Shown: positions 22,985-53,126 of the stretch, in pieces
Layout: every line of letters begins with the position of its first letter
How positions within the stretch are numbered: the stretch's first letter is position 1
Assembly (NCBI GenBank): GCA_951406725.2
Contig: OX597816.1
Location: 92,814,001-92,878,000, forward strand
From: Octopus vulgaris
Taxonomy: Eukaryota
DNA length: 64,000 nucleotides
Reading direction: 5' to 3'
Notes under the pieces: generated by a model
Database searches by the model: none
Seen by the model: the letters and a program-made list of their open reading frames with translations, nothing else
What the model was told of the DNA's origin: nothing
Made by a program: the position numbers and the translations under genes

Positions 22985-23900
22985 TCTTTTATTGACCACA
23001 AAGGCTAACATAAAAGCAACATGAAATGACAAAACAGGACGATACAAAGGGTTTTAGAACATGTAAATAAAATAACAAAGAAAAAACAAATAAAACTCCC
23101 AATAAGGGGAGGTGCTTTAAGGCTACTCGTGGAAAAGACCCAAAGTCATGGGTGCCTGACCAACAGGGCAAGAGCCCTTCTTTTATTTTTCATAAATGTA
23201 TACTCGGAATTGGTCTTTTCAGATTAGTCATTCTCCCAACATTCACTCATCTTTCAATAAACTTGCTAGAAGGTAACACTTACCTCCCCACCCTCACTTT
23301 CCTCTTCAAGTGAAACTTGAAGAAGTTGATGAGGGCTTGGTCGAAGAGGAAAGTGTCTGACTTTAGCCCTTTCAAATGAGTCCACCATACTACCTCTTTC
23401 GTTACAGCTACCAGACAAAACAAATTGCCTGCCCCTCCCGGCCAAAGGAGGGCAGTGGGGCAAGCTGGATCCATCCTACGCATGACAGCAGGTGTTTGAC
23501 ATAAACCTACAAGTCAGCAATGCTCGGGCACTGGATGAGTGTGTACAGAATGGTTTCTTTGCTCTACATGCACCTTGGGCAGGCCTGGCTGATGGCACTT
23601 CTGTGCCTGTAAAGTTTATCCCAAATGGGCAGCGCCTCTCAGTAGCACTGCCAGGCAAGGCATTTCTGAAGGTTATCCATAGGCCCAGGCCTGGAATTTC
23701 TTTGAAAAAGACCAGTAAGTTGATCCTCGTCAACACCCAAAGTTTCCCCAAGAACGTTGTTGCACTTTTCTTCCACTAACCCTCTATAGAACGCTAGAGA
23801 GGAACTACCACTGATCACATTGCCTGCCTGGCAGAGGGCTTTGAGTACTTGATGACACTCTAGGTACTGAGCATCCCTCCTTGGTCTACACCTAATCCAA
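22985..23900 (-). mobile_element. Decayed Tx1/L1-like LINE 3' end (zf-RVT region and 3' UTR)
   Basis: The minus strand reads LAWQCY*EALPIWDKLYRH...ACPRCM*SKETILYTLIQCP (zf-RVT-like CxxC...ET...C), then AVTKEVVWWTHLKG...LINFFKFHLKRKVRV. The 3' UTR ends GGTCAATAAAA. Confidence 0.8.
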
Positions 23901-24747: not shown

Positions 24748-24945
24748 GTCCGGAAATCTTTCTTCACACATCTGTAACCTCTTCAGCAACACTTTCTGTC
24801 CTCATGTGTGCTCCTGCTCTGCTTAATCCCTGAAGAGGTCACAGATGTGTGATGAAAGATTTGGACTAAGCAGAGCAGGAGCACACATGAGGACAGAAGG
24901 TGTTGCTGAAGAGGTTACAGAAGTGTAATAAAATATTTGACAAAT
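24748..24945. ncRNA. Inverted repeat containing three degenerate hammerhead-like motifs
   Basis: The arms are 24766-24829 and 24863-24926. The motif CTGAAGA-GGT(C/T)ACA-N4-TGT(G/A)A-N-(G/A)AAA occurs on the minus strand at 24748-24786 and on the plus strand at 24830-24862 and 24906-24940. Confidence 0.55.
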
Positions 24946-25876
24946 AAAAATAATAATAAAGACCATTTTGAAGTACAACAATATATGTTGCAACACAAGA
25001 TTTCACATCAGGAATCTTGCTACAAAATTCATAAACATAGGCAGTTTCTTATATAATTTCCTTCATAAGGAGAGTTAGAATCTAAAGAAATTGTAAACAT
25101 TTATGTTTTAATGAAACTAAAAATTTCAATTTCATTGTAAAATGCAACATTTTTAAGCTTTCACTTCTTACCCTGTAATTTTCCAGATTCACTTAAGAAT
25201 ATTTTCACTCTTGTGCCTGTATTTTTCCTGTTAGTCCACTTTTTTAATTACAGAATAGAATACTTTACACAGTCTAAACATAATTGTCATTGAGACAAAA
25301 CTCAAAAAGTATTAAGGATAAAATAATTTACTCTTTTGCAAAATGTTTAAAGTAGAGTGAAAATGTAAATTTTATAAATTGGTAAATTATTTAAAAATAC
25401 TAATTAGGAACTAAAGACAAAAGAAAATATGTCAATAAAGTAGAAGCAGATTAATTTAAATGGCACCAGGCAGAAAATGGTACAGAAATTATGAGTTGAA
25501 CAGTTTGAGGTAAAAATGGTTTGATCATGTTCACCTTTTTAAGAAGCACCAGTGGTGACACTCCTTATCACCATGGTGTTAAACAAGGAATGTTTGAATA
25601 TTTCAATTGATTATAGTCATATAAAGATACTTTGGAGGTGAGACTCATAAAATCCATTATTAAAACATGATTCTGAAAAAATTTTTGAAAAACAAATGTA
25701 AAAATCCCCAAAATAAACAGGTAAGTTGCATATTTGCCATATCTGTCTAAATTTCAACCCCTTTTTAACTGTTTATTGTCACTGATTACTGGTACAGATT
25801 ATCATTATTTGATTGGATCCTACTGATTATTTTAGTCTATATTTGTGGTTTGTGTGTATATACACATACACATATA

Positions 25877-27147
25877 CGAGGGACGTTCAATAAGTAATGC
25901 CCCTGACCCACTTGCATTTGTTTGATCTAGCTGAAATTTTGCATGTGCAATCATTTATATCTCTATAGATTAAGCGGCAAATTACAGCTCTGAACCAATT
26001 GTGGTTTCTGATTTACAGGTGTTTGAACTGAGCCAAGTGTGAAATGGAGCCTGTTGAGTGATCCAGTTTTTGTATTTGAAAGGACGCACACCACGCGAGT
26101 CTTTTGATGAAATGAAAGTAACTTATGGTGATGATGCCCCATGTAAAACGTTGGCATCATGAATTCAAACATGGTCGGAACTCTGTGGAAACAGCTCCCA
26201 GATCTGGTCGCCTCCCTTCTGCCATTGATGAGGCATCTGTCCATCAAGTTGAGGCTGCCATTTTCGAAGATCGACGCACAACTATTCGCCAAATAGCCCA
26301 TGAGGTCAAGATTAGTACCGGGTCTGTGGAAACTATCATTCATGACCATTTGCATATGCAAAAGGTGTCTGCCAGATGAATTCCCAGGTTGCTCACACCT
26401 TTCCAGAAGCAAGAACGTGTCGAGTGCTCAAGGATGAATTTGGAAATGTGCCAAGAAGATGAGTCAAAATTTTCCAAAAGACTGATTACACAGGATGAAA
26501 CCTGGGTCCATCACTATGATCCAGAGACCAAAGCCCAGTTAATGCAGTGGAAGCACCGTGACTCACCTCCTCCAAAGAAGGCAAGAGTGCAGCCCTCCGC
26601 TGGCAAGGTCATGCTCACAGTCATCGGGACCAGGATGAAGTAGTGATGACAGATTTCCTGGCAAAGGGTACCACAATTACAGGAGCCTATTATGCTTCAC
26701 TTTTGAAGAAATTAAGAGAAGCTATCAAAATCAAGAGGCGGAGCAAGATCAGCAAAGGCATCCTCCTCCTGCAGGACAACGCTCCGGTTCACAACTCGCT
26801 TGTCGCCAGATCAGAAGCACAGGCGTGTGGCTATGAACTCCTCCCCCCATCCCCCTACTCGCCTGACTTTGCACCCTCTGATTTTCACCTCTTTCCAGCC
26901 ATGAAGTTGTTTTTGAAAGGAAAGCGTTTCCCAGATGATGCAGCCTTGATTTCTGAAGTCATGTCGTGGTTGGAGGACTAAGCTGGGGTCTTCTACAAAA
27001 ACGGTCTCCAGAGCTGCATCAAACGATGGGAGAAATGCGTAACTCTGGGTGGTTCCTATGTAGAAAAAGACTAATAACTGTGCCAAGTTTCGTTGCTCTA
27101 CTGCTATGGGAAGTGGGTCAAGGGCATTACTTATTGAACGCCCCTCG
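25877..27147 (+). mobile_element. Full-length mariner (DD34D) DNA transposon
   Basis: 37-bp TIRs CGAGGG(A/G)CGTTCAATAAGTAATGCCC(C/T)TGACCCACTT with 2 mismatches. TA lies to the left (25875-76) and TT to the right. Length is 1271 bp. Confidence 0.97.
26044..27074 (+). pseudogene. Disrupted mariner transposase
   Basis: Motifs PRSGR, ITQDETWVHHYDPE, LLQDNAPVH, YSPDFAPSDFHLF (34 residues between the last two catalytic D) and GSYVEKD* are present. In-frame stops at about 26377 and 26979 and frameshifts disrupt it. Confidence 0.95.
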
Positions 27148-27239
27148 TTGTTATATGCATGTTCATGTATGTGTGTATGTATAGGCATAGCCAGTTTGGT
27201 GCCTTAGTGATCGCTCCCAAATCTGATGACTTTTTGCTA

Positions 27240-27945: not shown

Positions 27946-29357
27946 TATCTTTTAATTGTTTCAGTCATTTGACGGCAACCATACTGGGACACCACCTTAA
28001 AGAATTTTAGTCGAACAAATCAACCCCAGAACTTATTATTTGTAGAACCTGGTATTTATTCCATCAGTCTTTTTAATCCAAATCACTAAGTTACGAGGAT
28101 GTAAACACACCAACACCAGTTGTCAAGTGGTAGTAGGAGACAAACAGACACAAAGACACACACACACATGCATGCACGCACACATATGCACACACACACA
28201 CTCATATATATATATATATATATATATAATGCAAAAATGGGACAAGAACGCAAAACATCCATACAATTAGGTGATACAAAAAAGGGATAACAAAACATCT
28301 AGACAGATGAAACAAAGAAAACAAGGACGGGTCATTCAGAATTTTCTTTCCTCATTTGAGTTCCAGACTATCTTTGCAATTTTGGCTGGTTATACTCAAG
28401 ATTGCTCCAATCTGGCCAGCCCCCCAAAAAACTAAGCTAAGAAGATTAGATTCCTTGGAATGAAGCAGCGAATGTATATCAAAACAAGGACAAGAAAAAA
28501 TGGAGAAATGTTACACAAATACAATTGCAAGTAACAGAACATAACAACAGGTGTTTTTCGACTAATGACGAATTAAATTAAGCTGGCGTGTGTGGAAGTA
28601 AAGCCTTACGGCAGGGACATAAGATTTGACTGGTACAGGGGGGAATATAGATGTTGCAGGGATGGTAGTTGAACCAAGAAAGAAAGGCCAGGCTTGACTG
28701 AAGACCGGTCACGTGGGGAGAGAAGAGTGAGAGGTAGAAGCAGGGGATAGAAGAATTAAGGAGGGGCAAGAAAAAATGAAAGGGAAAGAGTGAAGTGAAA
28801 GAGGACGGAAATGATCATGAAGAGAAGGTCAGGAAATGTGAGAGATGGCGAACGAAAGAACAAAGAGTGGAATGAAGGAGGTAAGTGTGGAAGAGCTGAT
28901 AGAAAGAAGGAAAGAATAGAAAGAATAATAGAGTCGTACAAAATTTAGATATACATATACTTACATATAAGAGACCAAAGTGTACATATGCCACTATATT
29001 CTTATATATAAATAATACAAAAATGGAACAAGAACGCAAAACATCCAGACAGTTAGGTGATGCAAAAAAGGGACAGCAAAATATCCAGACAGACGATACA
29101 AAGCAAACAAGGATGGATCATTCGGAGCTTTCTTTCCTCAGTCGAGTTCCAGATTATCTTTGCAATATATATATATATATATATATATATACGACTTTTT
29201 CCTTTCAGTTTCTGTGTTTGTTCCTACCAAATCCACTCAGATGGTTTTTGTCAGCCTGAGGTTATAGTAGAAGATATTTGCCCAAGGCGCTGTGTAGTGG
29301 GACTGAACCCAGAACCATGTTGTTAGGAAGCAAACATTTTACCACATAGCCATGCTT
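27946..29357 (-). mobile_element. SINE family A split by an insertion in its central microsatellite
   Basis: The tail half is at 27946-28200 and the head half at about 29190-29357, matching the two halves of 1261-1663. Confidence 0.8.
28228..29166. mobile_element. Non-coding repeat inserted in (TA)n, with a 153-bp segment present twice (possibly Penelope-like)
   Basis: 28228-28380 and 29014-29166 are diverged direct copies, each preceded by (TA)n, with a purine-rich middle. The Penelope assignment is inference. Confidence 0.55.
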
Positions 29358-33429: not shown

Positions 33430-35590
33430 AAATGCTTCTGACATAAATTTCACAGACACAATTGACATTTTATGTAGGATATTTAGTGAGAAAACATTGT
33501 TACTCAACACACATTGCATGTGTTTGAACACAGAAAAGCAACGACGAAGACTTTACCATATATGCAGGTAGAATGAACAAAGAGTGCTAGAGATTTAAAC
33601 TGGATAAACGAACTCCAGTCTCGTTCATGTGCCTGATTTTGGGGACGCAGAAGTCAGAACGAAAATTCTCACATAGCTGGAGATGAACCAGGATATAACT
33701 CTCCAGAAACTGAAGAGTGATATTAAAGTAAGCCACGACACAGAAAAGAAAAACGCAGAGATTGTTTACAGATAAAAGAGGTGTCGAAGAGTCAGAAGGC
33801 AGGTTAAGTATTTCACAAAATTCACGATAAAAAGTAGGAGATAAACCCCTGTATTGCTTGCGGTGGTAGACACCTGAAAAAAGAGTGTTCGTTCAAAAAA
33901 ACAAAGTGTTTTCATTGTGGGTATATAGAACACATTAAACCGAATTGCAGAACTAAGATGACAAAAAATTGGACTAAACGAGAAAAAAAAGAATAGTTTG
34001 TCATCAGAGAAAAAAAAAGTTTGTACAACGAACAGAAAATTTATAAAGGTGTGAATCGAAACCACTAGTGTCAAAATGCAATTAGACACAGGTAGTGGCA
34101 TCACTACCATAAATGAAGGAACTTGGCGACAAATCGCTAAGTCGAAATTATTTAAATCAAATAAAGTAGCATATGGTGTTACAGGAAAGAAATTATATTT
34201 TATTGGCGTATATATTTGCAATGTAACTTTACGAGATGAAACGAAAAGGACAATAATTTATATGTTGAAAAAAATTACTAAACCTATTTGGCACAAAATG
34301 CATGGAATTATTTAAAATGTGGATAGCCCCATTAGTGTTCTCTGTGAAAATGTAGTCGGCATAGTTAAAATTTCGAACTGAGACAAAAAAATTAAAAAAT
34401 TGTTTCCAAATGTTTTTTTTAAAGTATTAGGCTGTTGCACTAAAACAAAAGCGAGGATCGCGGTTAAAGAAAAGGCGATGCGTGTTTTTAGGTTCAAATG
34501 GAACGTACGTTTGCGGTGTGGGACCAGGTCAATAAAGAGCTAGAAAGACTAGAAAGTCTAGCTATAATTGAAAAAGTCGGCCATTCAAACTGGGAAGCTC
34601 TGACATGTAAAAAAAAAAAAGTAATAAAGTGAGAGTGAGCAGACTTTTCCACTGGATTAAAAGACTTTTATTGAACATAATTATCCATTACCAAGCCCAG
34701 AAGTTTTCTCAAAACTTTTCCTTCATTTAGAGGAAAACTTTTTCTTGAAGTTAGACCTCTTGGGGAGCTATCTATAGATACAGGTAGAGGAAGATTGCAC
34801 ACACTTTTTAACAATCAACACACACCGTGGATTGTATAAATTCAAGCGGCTTCCTTTTGGAGTAAAAGTGGCAACTGCCATATTCCAGCAAGTGATGAAG
34901 CAATGTTAAATGACTGCAACTTCACTATCACTTATCTCCATGATATTTTGATAAAGAGTGAGTCAGTAGAGCAACACTTCGAACATATTAAAAAAGTATT
35001 CGGAAAAATAGATGAACACAGGTTTAGACTGACAGAGGAAAAGAATGAATTTTTGATGAAAAAAATCAAATATTTATGTAAGTAATTGACAAAAGGGGAC
35101 GAAGGCCAGACCCATCAAGGGCAATGATGGCAATATGGAGTATGCCTCCCCCAACAAACGTCAAATTATTACAAGTATTTTTAGGTTTGGTAAATTACTA
35201 TCAAGTATATATTCTAAACGTACAAAACACAAGGGCTCCATTAAACGAGCTGTTAAAAAGGGATGCCAAATGGTTTTGGTCAAAATATGCCAGAAGGCAT
35301 TTGAGGAACTAAAAAGCAGGTTAACTTCAGACTTGTCGCTTACACACTTCAATCCGAAGTTGGAAACGATACAGGCAACAGATGCTGGTGAATACAAGGT
35401 AAGTTCCGTACACCTACACAAAGCTGAAGATGGCAGCCAAAAAGTTATAGGTCACGTGTCAAGGACGCTATTGCCAGCAAAAAAGAATTATAGCTAAATT
35501 GAAAAAGAGGCATTGGTGATTATATTTGACATAAAAAAGTTTCACAGATTTATACATGGTTGACTGTTTAGACTACAAACAGACCATTAT
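33430..35590 (+). mobile_element. Decayed Ty3/Gypsy LTR retrotransposon gag-pol fragment
   Basis: Knuckle relic CFHCGYIEH, protease MQLDTGSGITTI (34076), RT YKFKRLPFGVK and YLHDILI, FLGLVNYY, and RNase H TDAGEY...HVSRTLLPAKKNYS*IEKEAL...TDH. Domain order is PR-RT-RH with many stops. I saw no integrase or LTRs. Confidence 0.92.
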
Positions 35591-45865: not shown

Positions 45866-46308
45866 TGAAAAACAGAATACCTTTGCTGAACTATTGAGAA
45901 ATTTGCAGTTACTCTATCAAGATTACAAGTTCAGGTTTATACTTGCAAATATTGGGGCACAGGGATATGTAATATACTGCCTAAATACCAATCTTTAGAA
46001 ATTAGGCTTCTCAAAACCAGAAAGGAGAAAGTTAATTTGAAGACTGCAGATCCAAGCCATCACTGGAACAGTAAAAATCTGCAAACTTTTCAAGATGTTT
46101 ATCATCTAAGTATATACAAGTATGTCTAGATATGCAAGTATATAAATGAGAAGACACACATAAAACAAACATACAGATCTGCACATATACTTACAAACAA
46201 AAATAACCTATTGTCGATGTCGAAATTCCAGTGAAGAAGTCTTGAATCTAGGTCAGAAACCATTTCTTTCTCTATTGGCAAGAAGTCTTGAAATAAAACT
46301 GAATTATG
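45866..46308 (+). mobile_element. 3' end of an RLE-type (R4/NeSL-group) LINE flanked by (CA)/(CATA)n
   Basis: Reads FAELLRNLQLLYQDYKFRFILANIGAQGYV...KLG...RLQIQAITGTVKICK, resembling the C-terminus of restriction-like endonuclease domains. The 3' UTR runs into (CATA)n at 46309. Confidence 0.7.
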
Positions 46309-46351
46309 ACATACATACATACATACATACATACATACATACATACATACA

Positions 46352-46404
<53 letters not shown>

Positions 46405-46502
46405 ACGTAGATACACACACACACATAATATAGATAATATATACATGTGTTTTTCAGAAAAATTATATTAATGTGTCCAACTGATTAAAATTCTGTTTAT
46501 TT

Positions 46503-46590
46503 GTGCGGCTGATGATGGCTCTTCATTTAAATTGATGTAATGATTGCCTTGTTCAATTAAATGGAGCCGCTTGAAACGGGTGTACTGCAT
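46503..46590 (+). ncRNA. Type I hammerhead ribozyme candidate within an about 175-bp repeat (46456-46627)
   Basis: Stem I GUGCGG/CUGCAU, core CUGAUGA (46509-15), long stem II UGGCUC..CAUUUAAAUUGA/UCAAUUAAAUGGAGCCG, GAAA (46573-76), stem III ACGGGUGU, and a GUA cleavage triplet ending at 46584. Confidence 0.7.
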
Positions 46591-46633
46591 CATTTCTTGA
46601 TATCCTGTTGCTTATCTTGATTTTGTATGTGTG

Positions 46634-46688
<55 letters not shown>

Positions 46689-46699
46689 GTGCATTTATA

Positions 46700-47450
46700 G
46701 GTACAGGACGTCACCAACTGTATAAGCAACATGAAGTACAGGAACAAACGAATTAAATACATAAACAATGACAGAAAAATTGAAAACGGGACAAGTAAAC
46801 ACAGAAAACGACCCTTCATCAGTTGTTGGCTGTCTATCTACTCCTCATTTCGAGCATTCACTGACAATATGAGTCTTTAAAGACAGTTGCTCCCATATGG
46901 GTACATGGAACATGAACTATTCTTTCGAACAACGAAAGACACAAATGGAAAACAAAACAAACATAATGAACGACCCTTTATCAGTTGTTGGCTTTCTCTC
47001 TAGTCTTGTATTTCGAGCATTTAACAACAATATACGTTTTCGATAAAACAGTTGCTCCTGCAAAGCAAATTAAATAAAATTTGGGATTTTGCAGAGGGTC
47101 AAAATAGGTAACACAAGCAGGACAATGAAAACATAAACGAGGTTGTGGTGGTGAACGCGTAAATCAAGCTAGGACAGGAGACAAACAAGAACACGTCTTC
47201 CTTGCTCCAGCTACAGTGGAGAGAAAGAAAGAAAGATGGCCGATGGTCACGTGGGAGTCACATGAGTAAGAGAGGAAGAGAGTGACAGAGTAATAGAATT
47301 GAATAAGGGGAGAAGAGGAGGTAAAAGAAGACGAGAGAAAAAAGAGAGAAAAACGAAAGAGTAAAAAGATCGTATAGAGTGGGCATTAGAATTATTAAGA
47401 TAAAACTTACTTGGAAAAGGATTCGTGGTGTTCAATCATATAATAATATA
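46700..47450. mobile_element. Non-coding repeat between microsatellites with an internal about 90-bp duplication (possibly Penelope-like)
   Basis: AACGACCCTT(C/T)ATCAGTTGTTGGCT...TTTCGAGCATT...ACAGTTGCTCC occurs at 46807-46894 and 46969-47057. A purine-rich tract starts at GGTCACGTGGG, as it does at about 28707. Confidence 0.5.
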
Positions 47451-47506
47451 AATAATATGTATGCATGCATATATACATATATATATGTACATACTTACAT
47501 CTATAC

Positions 47507-47544
<38 letters not shown>

Positions 47545-47549
47545 TCTTA

Positions 47550-48665
47550 CTCTTTTACTTGTTTCAGTCATTTGACTGCGGCCATGCTGGAGCACCGCCT
47601 TTAATCGACCCCGGAACCTATTCTTTGTAAGCCCAGTACTTATTCCATCGGTCTCTTTTGCCGAACCGCTAAGTGACGGGGGACGTAAACACACCAGCAT
47701 CGGTTGTCAAGCAATGCTAGGGGGACAAACACACACACACAAACACACACACATATACACATATATATATAAATTTATATATGAGGATAATATCGATATT
47801 TAAGTGTCGAAATTATCAAGTGGCCAGCATGAAAGAAATACCTTACAAAGGTAAAAAAATTTTTAACAATTAAAAATGAGGGTGTCTAAAAGACACCAAC
47901 ATGCCGAAATAGCAGTCGAAACTCTGACTATAAAACCACGTTAAATGTTCATATCGCACCATGAGGTAAAGCGGAGGGACAAAACATACAGGCAAAAATT
48001 ATTGAATAATTCAAGATCCAAGGATTTCTGGTTCTGCTTTAGATAAGCTTTACCGTCATCAATTGAATATATCAAGGGTACATAAATACAGATATATATA
48101 TGCACAGCAAACGATATACTTACATATACGAGCGTCGTACATACATACATATGCACGTATGGACACAGCCAGTTTGAATCGCCCGCCAAATCACCGCATT
48201 TTTTTTACCTTTGTAAGGTATTTCTTTCATGCTGGCCACTTGATAATTTCGACACTTAAATATCGATATTATCCTCATATATAAATTTATATAATTCGTT
48301 ATTATATTCACTGCGGTGCTTATTTTAACCATATCGTACTTATGCGGTGATTTGGCGGGCGATTCAAACTGGCTGTGTCCATACGTGCATATGTATGTAT
48401 GTACGACGCTCGTATATGTAAGTATATCGTTTGCTGTGCATATATATATCTGTATTTATGTACCCTTGATATATTCAATTGTTGACGGTAAAGCTTATCT
48501 AAAGCAGAACCAGAAATCCTTGGATCTTGAATTATTCAATAATTTTTGCTTGTATGTTTTGTCCCTCCGCTTTACCTCATGGTGCGATATGAACATTTAA
48601 CGTGGTTTTATAGTCAGAGTTTCGACTGCTATTTCGGCATGTTGGTGTCTGTTAGACACCCTCAT

Positions 48666-48732
<67 letters not shown>

Positions 48733-48897
48733 TACGACAGGCTTCTTTCAGTTTCTGTCTACCAAATCCACTCACAAGGCATTGGTCGGCCCGGGGCTAT
48801 AGCAGAAGACACTTGCCCAAGATGCCACGCAGTGGGACTGAACCCAGAACCATGTTGTTGGTTAGAAAGCTACTTACCACACAGCCACTCGTGCGCC
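47550..48897 (-). mobile_element. SINE family A (young) split by the interleaved inverted-repeat insertion
   Basis: The tail half 47550-47730 and head half 48733-48897 are near-identical to 1261-1663. Confidence 0.92.
47766..48669. repeat. Interleaved double inverted repeat A-B-A'-B'
   Basis: A (47766-47859) is the exact reverse complement of A' (48200-48293), 94 bp. B (47872-48199) is the reverse complement of B' (48342-48669), 328 bp, with 3 mismatches found by eye. Confidence 0.95.
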
Positions 48898-48929
48898 TAT
48901 ATATATATATACGTGTATATATATATATA

Positions 48930-49455
48930 CACACACACACACACTTATACATACTAATACGTACTAATACATACTAATACATACTAATACATACACCAAC
49001 CCCATACATACGCACGTCCAGACCAATCCTACGCACTAATACTCTCTCATACACACACACACACACACACACCCTTATACATACTAATACATACACCAAC
49101 CCTATACATACACACGTCCAGACCCCTCCTACGCACTATTAGCTGGTCCTTCAACCCTATTATCAACCCTATTATCAACCCTATTATCTCCCCTTATTTC
49201 GCTCTCGCGTCTCATGTTTGATCTTTGACCTCTGGCCGAAATCAGATCGCCATGTTGATTCGTTAGCTACTGCACGCATTTTTTTCTCTCCTTTCTGTGT
49301 TTTTTTTCTCTCTGTGTATCTTTCTGTTGAAGAGCGTAGGCTCGAAACGTTAAAGACTTGTTTTATTTATATTTCCTGAGCGCCATACTAATACAATTGT
49401 TCGTTTGTTTTCCACCTGCCTTCGTCTTTTGTCTATTTTCATAAAGCTTCCCGTT
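48930..49455 (+). mobile_element. Short non-coding element in (TA)n with internal tandem repeats and a hammerhead motif (Penelope pLTR-like)
   Basis: Bounded by TA-rich microsatellites. It has a duplicated block (48944-49040 / 49074-49140), (TCAACCCTATTA)x3, a pyrimidine-rich 3' part and retained CpGs. Confidence 0.6.
49319..49356 (+). ncRNA. Minimal type I hammerhead ribozyme candidate with a variant core
   Basis: UCUUU-CUGUUGA-A-GAGC(GUAG)GCUC-GAAAC-GU-U-AAAGA gives a 5-bp stem I, a 4-bp stem II and a palindromic ACGU stem III. Confidence 0.65.
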
Positions 49456-49487
49456 ATATATATATACGTGTATATATATATATATAC

Positions 49488-49530
<43 letters not shown>

Positions 49531-50916
49531 GGTGATGATATGCTAAAATATGATAAAGGGACAGAAATAGGTGTCCCAATGTAGGGAAGATACTTTGCTG
49601 GTAGTAATGAGGTGTCAGGGCATATCTACAAGGCACAGGAAGATGAATATAAGAGCAGTGAGACAGAAGTTTGGATAGAGTGAGTGAGCAGCTGAATTCA
49701 TGAGAGTGTGAAAGGGGGCAGGTCAACATCCAGAAGTCATTCTTCACTATTTTGACTCTCATCTACCCGGGTTTCTCTGTTCCACAGGTTCCATCCAGAT
49801 TTAGCAATTGATACTTCTTTATACAGCTGTCTGTAAATTCTATTAAATTTTGAAAATGATATGTATTATAATAAACATTGACTTAATGTTCATTCAATAT
49901 GTGTATACACTCTATAAGACATCAGATGTATATATACATAAATAAACTTAGAGAGAGGGAGAGATACATGCACACACACGTGCATGTACATGAAATGCTT
50001 GTGTTTATATATATGCATACAAATATCCAGAATGCATTCATATACACCACCTATATGAAGATATGACTGCTTAGCTAATATTGATATTTATTTCACTTTC
50101 TTTCTAATATCACTTGTAGAAGACCATGACTTGCTGTCCTGAAATTATTGGGCACTAATTATCTACTGAGCAACTACTTGATGCAGACTCCAGGAATTTG
50201 ATTTAATATGAAAATAATTAATATGTTTTTAAGAGGTTATCCACATTTACAATCAGAGGACATAAATTGTTGTCAAAATCCATAATTATAGAATAATTTG
50301 ATTAAGGAGTAGCAATATAAACTTTGTTGACCTCAATACTAGATGTTCAGCTTTCTCAACAGCACTCAGTGAATGTCAGATAACTAAAGACTATGAAATG
50401 AAGCCAGCTTAAGAAAGTCATAAAATCATTGTTACTAATAATTAAAACCAGCCACTGTCAGCAAAACATGACATATGTCTCTGACAGGAACCAGTGAAAT
50501 ATTTCTTCAAGCTAATTGGCTTAACAATGTGTTTATCATGAAATATAGTTTTTATATTCACTTGAAGATTTTACTGTGGCATCAGTGTAACACACTTTCT
50601 CAAATATTTTACAGTATCGGGTTCTTATAATTCAGGTGTTTTACTGGCTTTTAATCATTAATGGGTCAATTTGATGCAATTTTTCATTTTATCTTTTACA
50701 TTTTCACTTATTGTTTTGTTATGATGTTTTTGCTTCATTTCATATCTAAACTATTAAAAATTTGATGTTTTTATAAACTGAAATTAAGAGGAACAAAATG
50801 TGATGTTCAAATTTGAACTTGAATAAGAATTTCCAAGTAAAATATTAATTTGCTGATTTATACCTAAGTTACACCTTTTATTCATTTTCTGTCAGAATTA
50901 CAACTAAGCTGGGTTT

Positions 50917-51275
50917 TATTTTCAATTTTTATTTTCTCTTTGGATTTTTCTTTTACCTCATCATCATCATCATCATCATCGTCAAATTTTCACTAGCTTC
51001 CTCATTTTCACACCAGTCTGGTTATGAAAATATTCATTCTATTAATTTTAAATCCCTAACTAAAATATCTTAAATTGAAATTCCCTTTACTGTATTTAGC
51101 ATATCAAGTTTGAAAGTATTTTTAATTTGTTTCCCCTTTTGATTTTCACCTCAACATCAATTTATTTTTTATCTGTCTCCTCATCTTAACACTACTAATC
51201 TGATTTATGAAAATATTTGTTCTATTAATTTTAAATTCCAAACTAAATAATTTTTACTGAAATTTCCATTAAGAT
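50917..51275. repeat. Diverged tandem duplication (about 185-200-bp period)
   Basis: TTATGAAAATATT...TTCTATTAATTTTAAAT..AACTAAA...TGAAATT occurs at about 51022 and 51205. Confidence 0.7.
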
Positions 51276-51642
51276 TGAGATGTTCAAAATAATAAAAAAG
51301 AAATTTGGAGGAAAAGCATATCTAGATGGTTTGATATCATGTCAATGACATATCTTCTTTAAAACCTACATTGTACTATAATCTGAAATATGCTGAAAGA
51401 AGTAAATAAAATATCTTGATGCCTGTGGTTTATAAGATTTCTGTAAGACACGGAAGCAACATAGTTTAGCTATGCTGATTATGATGGTGAAATATTTACA
51501 ATATGCAGCTCCTGTTTGGTTCAGTTAATTATTTTCCTAGATAAAGTGATTACTGTAAGTACAGTTTAAGAAATAAAATCTTACTTTAGAATAAGTTTTC
51601 TCAGAATTCATTTATTCATTTTATACTTAATTTATTCTGTTA

Positions 51643-52036
51643 CTCTTTTACTTGTTTCAGTCATGTCATTCTGGCCATGCTGGAGCACCGCCTTTAGTCG
51701 AGCAAATTGATCCCAGGTCTTATTCTTTGTAAGCCTAGTACTTATTCTATCAGTCTCTTTTGCCAAACAGCTAAGTTACGGGTATGTAAACACACCAGGA
51801 TCGGTTGTCAAGCGATGTTGGTGGGGACAAACACAGACACACAAACATATACACACACACATACATATATATACGACGGGCTTCTTTCAGTTTCCATCTA
51901 CCAAATCCACTCACAAGGCTTTGGTTGGCCCAAGGCTATTGTAAAAGACACTTGCCAAAGGTGCCACGTAGTGGGACTGAACCTGGAATCATGTGGCTCG
52001 TAAGCAAGCTACTTACCACACACCCACTCCTATGCC
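51643..52036 (-). mobile_element. Full-length SINE family A
   Basis: Colinear with 1261-1663. Confidence 0.9.
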
Positions 52037-52169
52037 TATTGTAAACTTTATTTTTAAATTTAAATTTCATCTTACTAGATGTTAAATTGATAAAAACCTC
52101 ACTTATTAAAAAATACAAAATTTAATATCCTAGTGCATGAACCAAAACTAATCTATTCCATGGCAATAT

Positions 52170-52490
52170 TAACCCTAGCACTCCATCGGTTATGACAACG
52201 AGTGTGCCAGTTGATCCATTCAATGGAACAGCCTGCTCATGAAATTAACATGCATGTAACTGAGCACTCCACAGGCATACGAACCCTTAATGTAGTTCTC
52301 AGGGAGATCCAGCATGATACAGTGTGACAAGGCTTGCCCTTTGAAATACAGGTTCTTTCCATTTTCGACAGCTGAGTGGACTGGAGTAATGTGAAATAAA
52401 GTATTTTGCTTAAGGATACAATGCACTGTCAGGAATCAAACCTACAGCCAAACAATGATGCGTTGAATATCCTAACTACTAAGCCACATA
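52170..52490 (-). mobile_element. SINE sharing the family D central domain
   Basis: CTGAGCACTCCACAG...CCCTTAA.GTAGTTCTCAGGGAGAT...GTGTGACAAGGCT...TTGAAATACAGG matches 31927-32021. A tRNA-like head lies at 52420-52488. Confidence 0.8.
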
Positions 52491-52493
52491 ATA

Positions 52494-53126
52494 TCTATAT
52501 ATATAGAGCTGACGTTGTCTGTGTGTGTGTGTGTGGCAGGTTTGGTAGCCTTCAACTAACACTATCTCCTCTGAGATCCTGCAGCGCAAGTTGACCAAAA
52601 TTGAGAGTATGATAGAAGAAGGTTTGCTCTTCATTCCGTAGCAGAAAACATTCAAATCGGACCGTGTTAAGACCAAAAATTATTTACATAAAAAGGTGCT
52701 TTTTTTTATGAAAATCCCTATTTTTTACAATTTTTTGACTGCTGTGTCGTTATTTTTTGGTGTATTTCAACCAGAAAAAGTGTGATTTGGGGATTTTCGT
52801 GTACTTTTTCTTAATGAATACTGTTGCAGTGTTAACTTCTTAACAGATTTTCAGTGCAGTTCGAAACTTGAGCTTCATTTTGCTTTAAATCTATGGGTAA
52901 TTTTTTTCTCCATAATGTTACTAGAAGGAATATTAACCAACAGTACCAACAATTGAAGTCGGCATTACACATTTGCCGCACATTCAGAGCAAACTTGAGC
53001 ATCGTCACACTATACTTTTATTCATAGACTGAAACTATGTCAAAACTTTGTTAATGCAACATCAAAGTCTGCTGTTTTAAGCACAACTAAAAAACAAACC
53101 CGATCAACGCCGGGCTATACTGCTAG
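52494..53126 (+). mobile_element. Non-autonomous Helitron
   Basis: 5' end A|TCTATATATATAG, 3' hairpin CCCG-ATCAACGC-CGGG (53099-53114), then CTAG|T (53123-53127). Insertion is between A and T with no TSD. Length is 633 bp. Confidence 0.8.

What the first reader, a model, noticed from the sequence alone, without database searches (positions are those of the whole stretch)
47766..48669. Very young interleaved inverted repeat (A-B-A'-B') inserted in a SINE's (TA)n
Seen: a 94-bp pair that is identical and a 328-bp pair with about 3 mismatches, arranged A, 12 nt, B, A', 48 nt, B'. The two possible stems cross like a pseudoknot instead of nesting, so this is not a simple MITE or foldback element. 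B contains a small hairpin (GGTGTCT-AAA-AGACACC) and GCC-GAAA-TAGCAG-TC, which resembles a hammerhead 3' half. Inference: a product of repeated template switching during reverse transcription of a Penelope-like RNA. If transcribed it gives over 300 bp of near-perfect dsRNA, a substrate for ADAR or Dicer.
Basis: partly seen in the sequence, partly recalled or inferred. Interest (0 to 1): 0.7.

Follow-up and report, generated by a model that had tools for sequence, protein, structure and literature searches.

The report
Head-to-head Penelope-type insertion in a SINE
Two shortened copies of an abundant repeat sit in opposite directions inside a SINE, and their inverted repeats likely cross only because the copies cover different stretches of one tandem 482-base unit, so this is probably an ordinary one-step insertion by a Penelope-type jumping gene.

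Summary
The layout is real in the window. A/A' (94 bp) are identical, B/B' (328 bp) differ at 3 sites, the spacers are 12 (x) and 48 (S) nt, and the insert splits a SINE at its (CA)n(TA)n linker. The element belongs to a high-copy family. Contigs from four public runs show A'|S, S|B', B'|x' and x'|A' as family junctions, so the parent is likely a tandem or circular 482-nt unit. The right arm is unit positions 0-470. The left arm, inverted, is 142-576. Those two registers alone give both crossing repeats, with one new junction (48199|48200), so repeated template switching is not needed. TA target, head-to-head arms, a tail on one arm only and partial tandem match published Penelope-like element (PLE) insertions. 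No cognate RT was found. No listed contig bridges the centre junction, so an artefact is unlikely but not excluded. Transcription of this locus is untested. The host SINE's Pol III-like boxes point into the insert and would give a 204-bp duplex. Verdict: new member of a known kind.

The parts
47545..47725 (-). Host SINE, 3' (tail) half
   Evidence: 92% to 1263-1446 and 82% to 51640-51825; alignment
47726..47765 (.). (CA)n/(TA)n linker of the SINE, left part of the target; a target-site duplication cannot be resolved in the microsatellite
   Evidence: uninterrupted paralogue linker at about 1450-1500
47766..48199 (-). Left arm, 434 nt, sense order B'-x'-A' (unit positions 142-576); inferred 3' end at the TA target, 5' end at the centre
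   Evidence: family contigs run into TA at the equivalent end, after 48293 (table 7)
47766..47871 (-). 'Tail' x'+A' (106 nt), present at the outer end of the left arm only; ends in hairpin + CTCAT + TA-rich palindrome
   Evidence: x'|A' and B'|x' seen in other copies (tables 5, 5c, 7, 8)
48009..48068 (-). Hammerhead-like motif, left arm: 6-bp stem I, UUGAUGA, interrupted stem II, GAAA, short stem III, UC; predicted cut after 48015
   Evidence: only descriptor hit in 64 kb on both strands; 2 of 2000 shuffles hit (descriptor written after seeing the motif); not found by Rfam
48199..48200 (.). Head-to-head junction, the only junction not seen elsewhere in the family; flush, at most 1-2 nt microhomology, no palindrome
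48200..48669 (+). Right arm, 470 nt, sense order A'-S-B' (unit positions 0-470); ends in hairpin + CTCAT + T-run at the TA target
   Evidence: one 295-nt contig holds B-S-A in one piece (record 14)
48473..48532 (+). Hammerhead-like motif, right arm, with a private core change (UUGUUGA) at 48482
   Evidence: position 48059 is not listed as a family variant at >=2%
48670..48734 (.). (TA)32 tract, right part of the target, longer than in the uninterrupted paralogue
48735..48895 (-). Host SINE, 5' (head) half with A-box-like (48887) and B-box-like (48844) motifs pointing into the insert
   Evidence: 95% to 1501-1661; 1 and 2 mismatches to the Pol III consensus, 32 nt apart

Best explanation
The 904-bp insert is two truncated copies of one high-copy repeat, placed in opposite directions in a SINE's (TA)n linker and likely made in one retrotransposition event by a Penelope-like element's enzyme acting on the RNA of a probably tandem 482-nt unit (A'-S-B'-x'). 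Proposed steps (inferred): the enzyme nicks both strands of the TA target. One cDNA starts at the end of A' and the other 106 nt upstream at the end of B'; both sites are a hairpin followed by CTCAT. The cDNAs stop after 434 and 470 nt and are joined head-to-head. The right cDNA ran back into the previous unit's A', so the arms overlap twice (B within one unit, A one unit apart), and the two inverted repeats cross. Shown: arm geometry, interrupted SINE, family junctions, TA-bordered family ends. Inferred: sense strand, tandem or circular template, enzyme, single event.
For: Family: 20 of 24 listed runs hold the stretch, 17 with half the words or more, in 10 studies; 827, 736, 1061 and 47 contigs laid in the 4 runs tested. 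S|B' joint in 4 of 4 runs (depth 28, 5198, 14148, 14). A'|S crossed by records 14 and 15 (31 or more letters each side) and record 31 (30 letters on one side). Record 14 holds B-S-A in one piece. x|B in record 9 with no differences. x'|A' as an opposite-strand joint in 1 of 4 runs (depth 141), plus x'-like letters in two skip joints and in loose ends before 48205 in 3 runs. TA-bordered ends: after 48293 in 4 of 4 runs (23, 16, 15, 2 contigs); before 47871 in 1 run (3 contigs). Seven other B-to-A' junctions at variable positions (47910-48101 joined to 48199-48259; depth 22-272) show that the head-to-head join recurs and is variable. The arms agree at 14 of 15 family-variable positions in the duplicated parts, and the exception is private to the left arm. 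Period 482 reproduces overlaps of 328 and 94 (arithmetic once the junctions are accepted). Hammerhead-like motif on the inferred sense strand. A sibling SINE has another hammerhead-like, terminally repeated insert in the same linker. Literature: partial tandems, adjacent inverted 5'-truncated copy, one-sided tail and (TA)n targeting (PMC8557442); both strands cut and extended, two RT start sites that define the tail, predicted dimer (PMC11167929); permuted halves in inverted orientation (PMC3846280).
Against: No RT or GIY-YIG ORF is linked to the family, so the PLE link rests on anatomy. The tail is 106 nt, against 30-40 bp in the papers read. The hammerhead is non-canonical (U at position 3, extra bases on both sides of stem II) and Rfam does not find it. 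The closed unit is pieced together from short contigs; no single record covers all four junctions, and the last 28 letters of record 14 were not shown. The x'|A' junction is the weakest. Reads were laid at 88% likeness, at which the tool warns that joints can come from related repeats. The seven other B-to-A' junctions do not show that those loci have the crossing layout. The centre junction is not bridged by any listed record. PMC3846280 explains head-to-head junctions by self-priming on an antisense template rather than by two primers.
Confidence: 0.68

Rival explanations
1. Same PLE-type family, but the layout was made by one polymerase that switched templates or self-primed, once or repeatedly, on sense and antisense RNA or cDNA.
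For: PMC3846280 proposes self-priming on an antisense template for head-to-head junctions. A single switch from sense RNA onto an antisense strand would leave the same sequence as two primers.
Against: Only one junction is new, so several switches are unnecessary. There is no palindrome at the centre, which self-priming predicts. x is only in the left arm and S only in the right arm, so neither arm is a fold-back copy of the other.
Confidence: 0.12
2. Two independent insertions of the family landed in the same TA tract in opposite directions, and a later deletion fused their inner ends.
For: The family is abundant and ends in TA. The same SINE linker holds another insert at 28229-29166. 5' truncation and later deletion cannot be told apart from sequence alone.
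Against: No TA remnant at the centre. The arms share the same letter at 14 of 15 family-variable positions and differ by only 3 of 422 bp. Direct B-to-A' joins recur at seven other positions.
Confidence: 0.07
3. Assembly artefact: two loci of a young repeat family were mis-joined, or a read chimera was assembled.
For: No listed contig bridges 48199|48200 (31 records shown, 2718 pieces not shown). PMC8557442 notes that such inserts cause assembly problems. PMC3846280 allows that its permuted copies may be fused identical copies, while arguing elsewhere that they are real.
Against: The flanks are the two halves of one SINE, in order and orientation. Each arm ends at or within 2 nt of a natural family terminus. 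The arms carry three private differences and different unique segments, which a fold-back chimera would not give. In two runs a depth of 33 and 48 at 47991 does not carry the family letter, which would fit the window's private letter at single copy (weak: the letter is not given).
Confidence: 0.07
4. A DNA-level event: local replication-fork template switches duplicated part of one inserted copy in reverse, or the unit is a pair of nested TIR elements or a DIRS-type element with an internal complementary region.
For: Crossing inverted repeats can arise from two local template switches (recalled). A centre made of the complements of both termini recalls the DIRS internal complementary region (PMC8969392 passage).
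Against: Both x and S are parental family sequence, yet each is in one arm only, so neither arm could be copied from the other. The centre joins the inner ends of A and B', not the outer ends as a DIRS internal complementary region does. The arms cross rather than nest, and S-B and A-S are contiguous in the family.
Confidence: 0.04

Closest known systems
Insertion units of endonuclease-bearing Penelope-like elements (Penelope/Poseidon, Neptune, Nematis, Naiad); PMC8557442, PMC3846280, PMC11167929
   Same: Partial tandem; adjacent inverted 5'-truncated copy in head-to-head orientation; extension on one end only; (TA)n target; two start sites that define the tail; hammerhead-like motif; permuted overlapping halves in inverted orientation reported for Pen3 of Adineta vaga.
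   Different: No ORF. Tail is 106 nt, not 30-40 bp. The unit is so short that the arms overlap twice, which gives crossing repeats. No palindrome at the inverted junction. No resolvable target-site duplication.
Metazoan non-LTR retrozymes (PMC7229834; bioRxiv 10.64898/2026.07.22.740005)
   Same: Non-coding unit of a few hundred nt, 35% GC, predicted self-paired (z -7.2), type I hammerhead-like motif, junctions that close into a circle, probable PLE dependence.
   Different: Unit is 482 nt, against 150-450 bp reported. The motif is not a canonical type I hammerhead. No genomic dimer with two motifs in direct tandem, no self-cleavage and no circular RNA were shown.
L1 twin-priming 5' inversions (recalled; only search listings seen)
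   Same: Both target strands prime cDNA; one inversion junction.
   Different: As recalled, L1 twin priming splits one RNA with little overlap and leaves a poly(A) tail. Here the arms overlap by 328 nt, which needs two RNAs or strand displacement, and there is no poly(A).

Membership tests
Penelope-like element (or derivative) | RT of the PLE clade with GIY-YIG endonuclease, in the element or in an autonomous partner sharing its end | tested here: inconclusive
   No such ORF in the insert. 105 window frames gave no GIY-YIG hit and only weak generic RT hits far from the insert. No genome was available to look for a partner.
Penelope-like element (or derivative) | Partial tandem / pseudo-LTR organisation | tested here: met
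   A' occurs both before S and after x' in family contigs
Penelope-like element (or derivative) | Adjacent inverted 5'-truncated copy, head-to-head | tested here: met
   Arms meet at 48199|48200; fixed TA-bordered outer ends and variable inner joins in the family. The strand assignment is inferred.
Penelope-like element (or derivative) | Tail of 30-40 bp on one end only | tested here: inconclusive
   A one-sided extension is present but is 106 nt long
Penelope-like element (or derivative) | AT-rich / (TA)n microsatellite target | tested here: met
   (table 7)
Penelope-like element (or derivative) | Minimal type I hammerhead motif near the 3' end | tested here: inconclusive
   Descriptor hit, 2 of 2000 shuffles, but non-canonical core; no Rfam match; the MFE fold does not give the hammerhead topology
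Penelope-like element (or derivative) | Target-site duplication (variable, optional) | tested here: inconclusive
   Both flanks are TA/CA microsatellite
Non-LTR retrozyme | Direct tandem repeats, dimers or more, each with a type I hammerhead | tested here: inconclusive
   Junctions close into a 482-nt circle, but no record spans two units; this locus holds less than one unit per arm
Non-LTR retrozyme | Monomer of about 150-450 bp, low GC, self-paired | tested here: inconclusive
   482 nt (slightly over), GC 35%, fold z -7.2
Non-LTR retrozyme | Self-cleavage and circular RNA in vivo | not testable with these tools
   Only contigs were available; the run laid as RNA is a guess by the tool
MITE / nested TIR elements | Terminal inverted repeats that nest, with fixed target duplication | tested here: not met
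   The termini are A and B', which are not complementary to each other; the repeats cross
DIRS-type element | Internal complementary region that joins the complements of the two outer ends | tested here: not met
   The centre joins the inner ends of A and B'; the centre is not a fixed family junction

The most novel reading that the evidence does not exclude
The family is an active retrozyme-like 482-nt circular or multimeric RNA with a non-canonical hammerhead and two matching RT start signals (hairpin + CTCAT) 106 nt apart. The crossing repeats are the genomic footprint of a dimeric Penelope enzyme copying two RNA molecules at once, one from each start site, onto the two strands of a TA target. 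Landing downstream of a SINE's Pol III promoter, the insert turns that SINE into a source of a 900-nt RNA with a 204-bp near-perfect duplex for ADAR or Dicer.
Probability: 0.2. Interest if true: 0.58.

Novelty: new member of a known kind. Interest (0 to 1): 0.3.

Why it matters
As one locus it is a tidy example of a known insertion type. Its use is as a readout. The unit is short, so each insertion records both start sites and both stop points within 1 kb. With many near-identical copies in the genome, the family could test in vivo whether PLE inverted arms come from two primers on two RNAs (suggested by the in vitro work in PMC11167929) or from antisense self-priming (PMC3846280); PMC8557442 names the origin of these tandem/inverted structures as unresolved. 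Such inserts would also be a steady source of new near-perfect dsRNA in an animal that, from recalled SINE sequence, looks like an octopus, a group known for heavy A-to-I editing (recalled).

Tried and rejected
No whole genome was held, so copies could not be mapped directly. Exact-pattern scans found nothing in metagenome contigs (two patterns) or viral contigs. No second copy of A, B or S lies in the window; the only non-simple hit, 37 nt at 24915-24951, is weak. Rfam gave only microsatellite-driven or chance matches for 46000-52500 and 47860-48075. The search for a host gene failed: Pfam on 9 + 96 frames (the 96 chosen from a ranked list of 427 candidate frames) returned transposase and RT fragments and weak noise; the frame at 23486-23776 had no homologue among longer proteins and only sub-0.9 Atlas hits. 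So intronic or intergenic status is unknown. ARAGORN found no tRNA. The energy evaluation of a forced hammerhead fold failed because the loop of stem III is only 2 nt, so no energy is claimed. Neither arm starts at the predicted ribozyme cut site (left arm 184 nt upstream), and 0 of 7 other B-side junctions do. Earlier scan notes by sequence and by place were empty. Paper searches returned no description of this family; Repbase, Dfam, subscription journals and supplementary files were not seen, so it may already be catalogued.

Full report
Observation. The layout is as described. A (47766-47859) is the exact reverse complement of 48200-48293. B (47872-48199) matches 48342-48669 with three differences. 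The spacers are x (47860-47871, 12 nt) and S (48294-48341, 48 nt). The two pairs score 3e-165 and 2e-42. The flanks are the two halves of one SINE, contiguous in paralogues at 1263-1663 (90% and 95%) and 51630-52039 (82-83%). The insert sits in the SINE's (CA)n(TA)n linker, with (TA)32 on its right. A target duplication cannot be read in the microsatellite. The SINE looks like those of octopus genomes; that is recalled and comes from no call.

The family. No genome was held. Of 24 public runs listed, 20 hold the stretch and 17 hold half its words or more, across 10 studies and four coded organisms plus one metagenome. The best share is 0.83, near the ceiling of about 0.87 expected if all but the private sites and the centre are family sequence. 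I laid contigs of 4 of the 24 runs on 47860-48341, where each segment occurs once, at 88% likeness. 827, 736, 1061 and 47 contigs were laid, of which 213, 246, 450 and 4 were 99% or more alike. The family is abundant and includes young copies. One of these runs may be the source of the window; this was not examined.

Parent order. One search shows each internal junction in other copies. S|B' is an opposite-strand joint 48199-48341 in 4 of 4 runs (depth 28, 5198, 14148, 14). A'|S is crossed by records 14 and 15 with 31 or more letters on each side, and by record 31 with 30 on one side. Record 14 (295 nt) holds B, S and all of A in one piece; its last 28 letters were not shown. x|B is continuous in record 9. 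x'|A' appears as joint 47860-48205 in one run (depth 141), as x'-like letters inside two skip joints, and as loose ends before 48205 in three runs; it is the weakest junction. Together these close a unit A'-S-B'-x' of 94+48+328+12 = 482 nt. It may be a tandem array, a circle or a 576-nt element with A' at both ends; the short contigs cannot tell these apart. Family contigs also run into (TA)n after 48293 in 4 of 4 runs (23, 16, 15, 2 contigs) and before 47871 in one run (3 contigs). So both outer ends of the insert are at or beside natural family ends.

Why the repeats cross. On tandem coordinates the right arm is 0-470 and the inverted left arm is 142-576. They overlap at 142-470 in the same unit (B, 328 nt) and at 0-94 one unit apart (A, 94 nt). 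x and S are simply what each arm lacks. Only the centre, 48199|48200, is new. It is flush, with at most 1-2 nt of microhomology and no palindrome. Seven other joints link B (47910-48101) to A' (48199-48259) at depths of 22-272, each in one contig. Head-to-head joins therefore recur with variable inner ends, as expected for 5' truncation. These joints do not show that those loci have crossing repeats. The arms carry the same letter at 14 of 15 family-variable positions in the duplicated parts; the exception, 47991, is private to the left arm. The other two arm differences are private to the right arm. This fits one event from one source copy, followed by three mutations in 422 bp. An absolute age cannot be given.

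Strand and hammerhead. On the opposite strand, 48068-48009 reads 6-bp stem I, UUGAUGA, an interrupted stem II, GAAA, a short stem III and UC. It is the only hit in the 64-kb window, and 2 of 2000 shuffles of the 482-nt stretch hit. The descriptor was written after I saw the motif, so that rate is optimistic. The core is non-canonical, Rfam does not find it, and the MFE fold takes another shape. The right arm has a private change in the core (48482). Both arms span the motif uncut and neither begins at the predicted cut site. Fixed TA-bordered outer ends, variable inner ends and this motif all make B' the sense direction. Both sense 3' ends are a hairpin followed by CTCAT and a T/A-rich run.

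Mechanism. Most likely (0.68): a PLE RT/GIY-YIG enzyme acting in trans nicked both strands of the TA tract. It primed one cDNA at the end of A' and one 106 nt upstream at the end of B', on multimeric RNA of the unit. The two truncated cDNAs were joined head-to-head. The geometry, family junctions and ends are shown; the enzyme, template form and single event are inferred. The 328-nt overlap requires two RNA molecules or strand displacement. Rivals: one polymerase switching or self-priming on an antisense template (0.12), two insertions plus deletion (0.07), assembly artefact (0.07), DNA-level duplication, nested TIR or DIRS-type element (0.04). The artefact cannot be excluded, because none of the 31 records listed bridges the centre and 2718 pieces were not shown. 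Against it are the matched SINE halves, the natural ends and the private differences.

dsRNA. The whole insert folds, without pseudoknots, into 326 B-B' pairs and no A-A' pairs (-639 kcal/mol). A full pseudoknot is implausible, since 12 nt cannot span a 328-bp helix (inference). No host exon was found, and locus-specific transcription was not tested. One route exists. The SINE head has A-box-like and B-box-like motifs at 48887 and 48844 on the minus strand, 32 nt apart, with 1 and 2 mismatches to the consensus quoted in PMC8969392. There is no run of four T on that strand until 47998. A read-through would be about 900 nt with 204 B-B' pairs. This is a prediction only.

Comparison with known elements. 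PMC8557442 (passages) describes PLE insertions as 5'-truncated partial tandems, often with an adjacent inverted truncated copy, a 30-40-bp tail at one end and (TA)n targets. PMC3846280 (passages and Discussion) reports head-to-head junctions and permuted overlapping halves in inverted orientation, with mixed views on whether the latter were assembled correctly. PMC11167929 (parts 1-2 of 4) shows cleavage and extension of both strands, two internal RT start sites that define the tail, a predicted dimer, and no need for ribozyme cleavage. PMC7229834 (passages) and bioRxiv 10.64898/2026.07.22.740005 (part 1 of 5) define non-LTR retrozymes. PMC6155905 (passages) notes minimal hammerheads in PLEs. 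No supplements were read. The insert works like a PLE insertion unit and meets the structural tests for tandem order, inverted copy and target. The enzyme link, tail length and ribozyme are inconclusive, so it is filed as a probable non-autonomous PLE derivative, not as a proven retrozyme. Six paper searches showed no description of this family; repeat databases could not be searched. Earlier scan notes from other genomes report similar inverted PLE stumps; they are unchecked AI notes and not support.

Verdict. Real, young, and explained by a known insertion type plus the arithmetic of a short tandem unit. New member of a known kind; interest 0.3. The family, rather than this locus, could be a good test of how PLE inverted arms are made.

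Noticed in passing
window 24766-24926: Small fold-back with near-perfect arms of about 56 bp (z -17) around a hammerhead-like core (CTGAAGAG...GAAA); probably another PLE-type inverted stump.
   Followed up: partly
window 28229-29166: A second insert in the TA linker of a sibling SINE, with diverged direct terminal repeats of about 150 nt and a hammerhead-like CTGAGGA...GAA motif on the minus strand. The same SINE linker is a repeated target.
   Followed up: partly
window 49300-49455: pLTR-like piece with TGAAGAG-CGTAGG-CTCGAAAC that folds as a three-way hammerhead-like junction and ends in (TA)36.
   Followed up: partly
window 46700-47040: Two diverged repeats 162 bp apart with CTGATGAAG on the minus strand, next to a (TG)n tract; possibly an old PLE-type partial tandem.
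   Followed up: no
window 48228-48293 and 47928-47978: These parts have several-fold higher summed contig depth in some runs and loose ends into unrelated sequence, which suggests end modules shared with other repeat families. Common variants at 48248 and 48253 would perfect the A'-end hairpin.
   Followed up: no
window 48061-48062: Two family variants at similar depth change the hammerhead-like core from UUGAUGA to CCGAUGA in 14-30% of summed depth in three runs: two subfamilies with different cores.
   Followed up: no
window 25876-27148: Mariner-type transposon remnant: 38-bp inverted ends with HTH and Transposase_1 matches.
   Followed up: no
window 34840-35494: Reverse transcriptase and RNase H-like fragments of a probable LTR retrotransposon.
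   Followed up: no
window 23486-23776: A 97-aa open frame that looks coding but has no Pfam, Atlas or longer-homologue match; a possible host exon, unresolved.
   Followed up: partly
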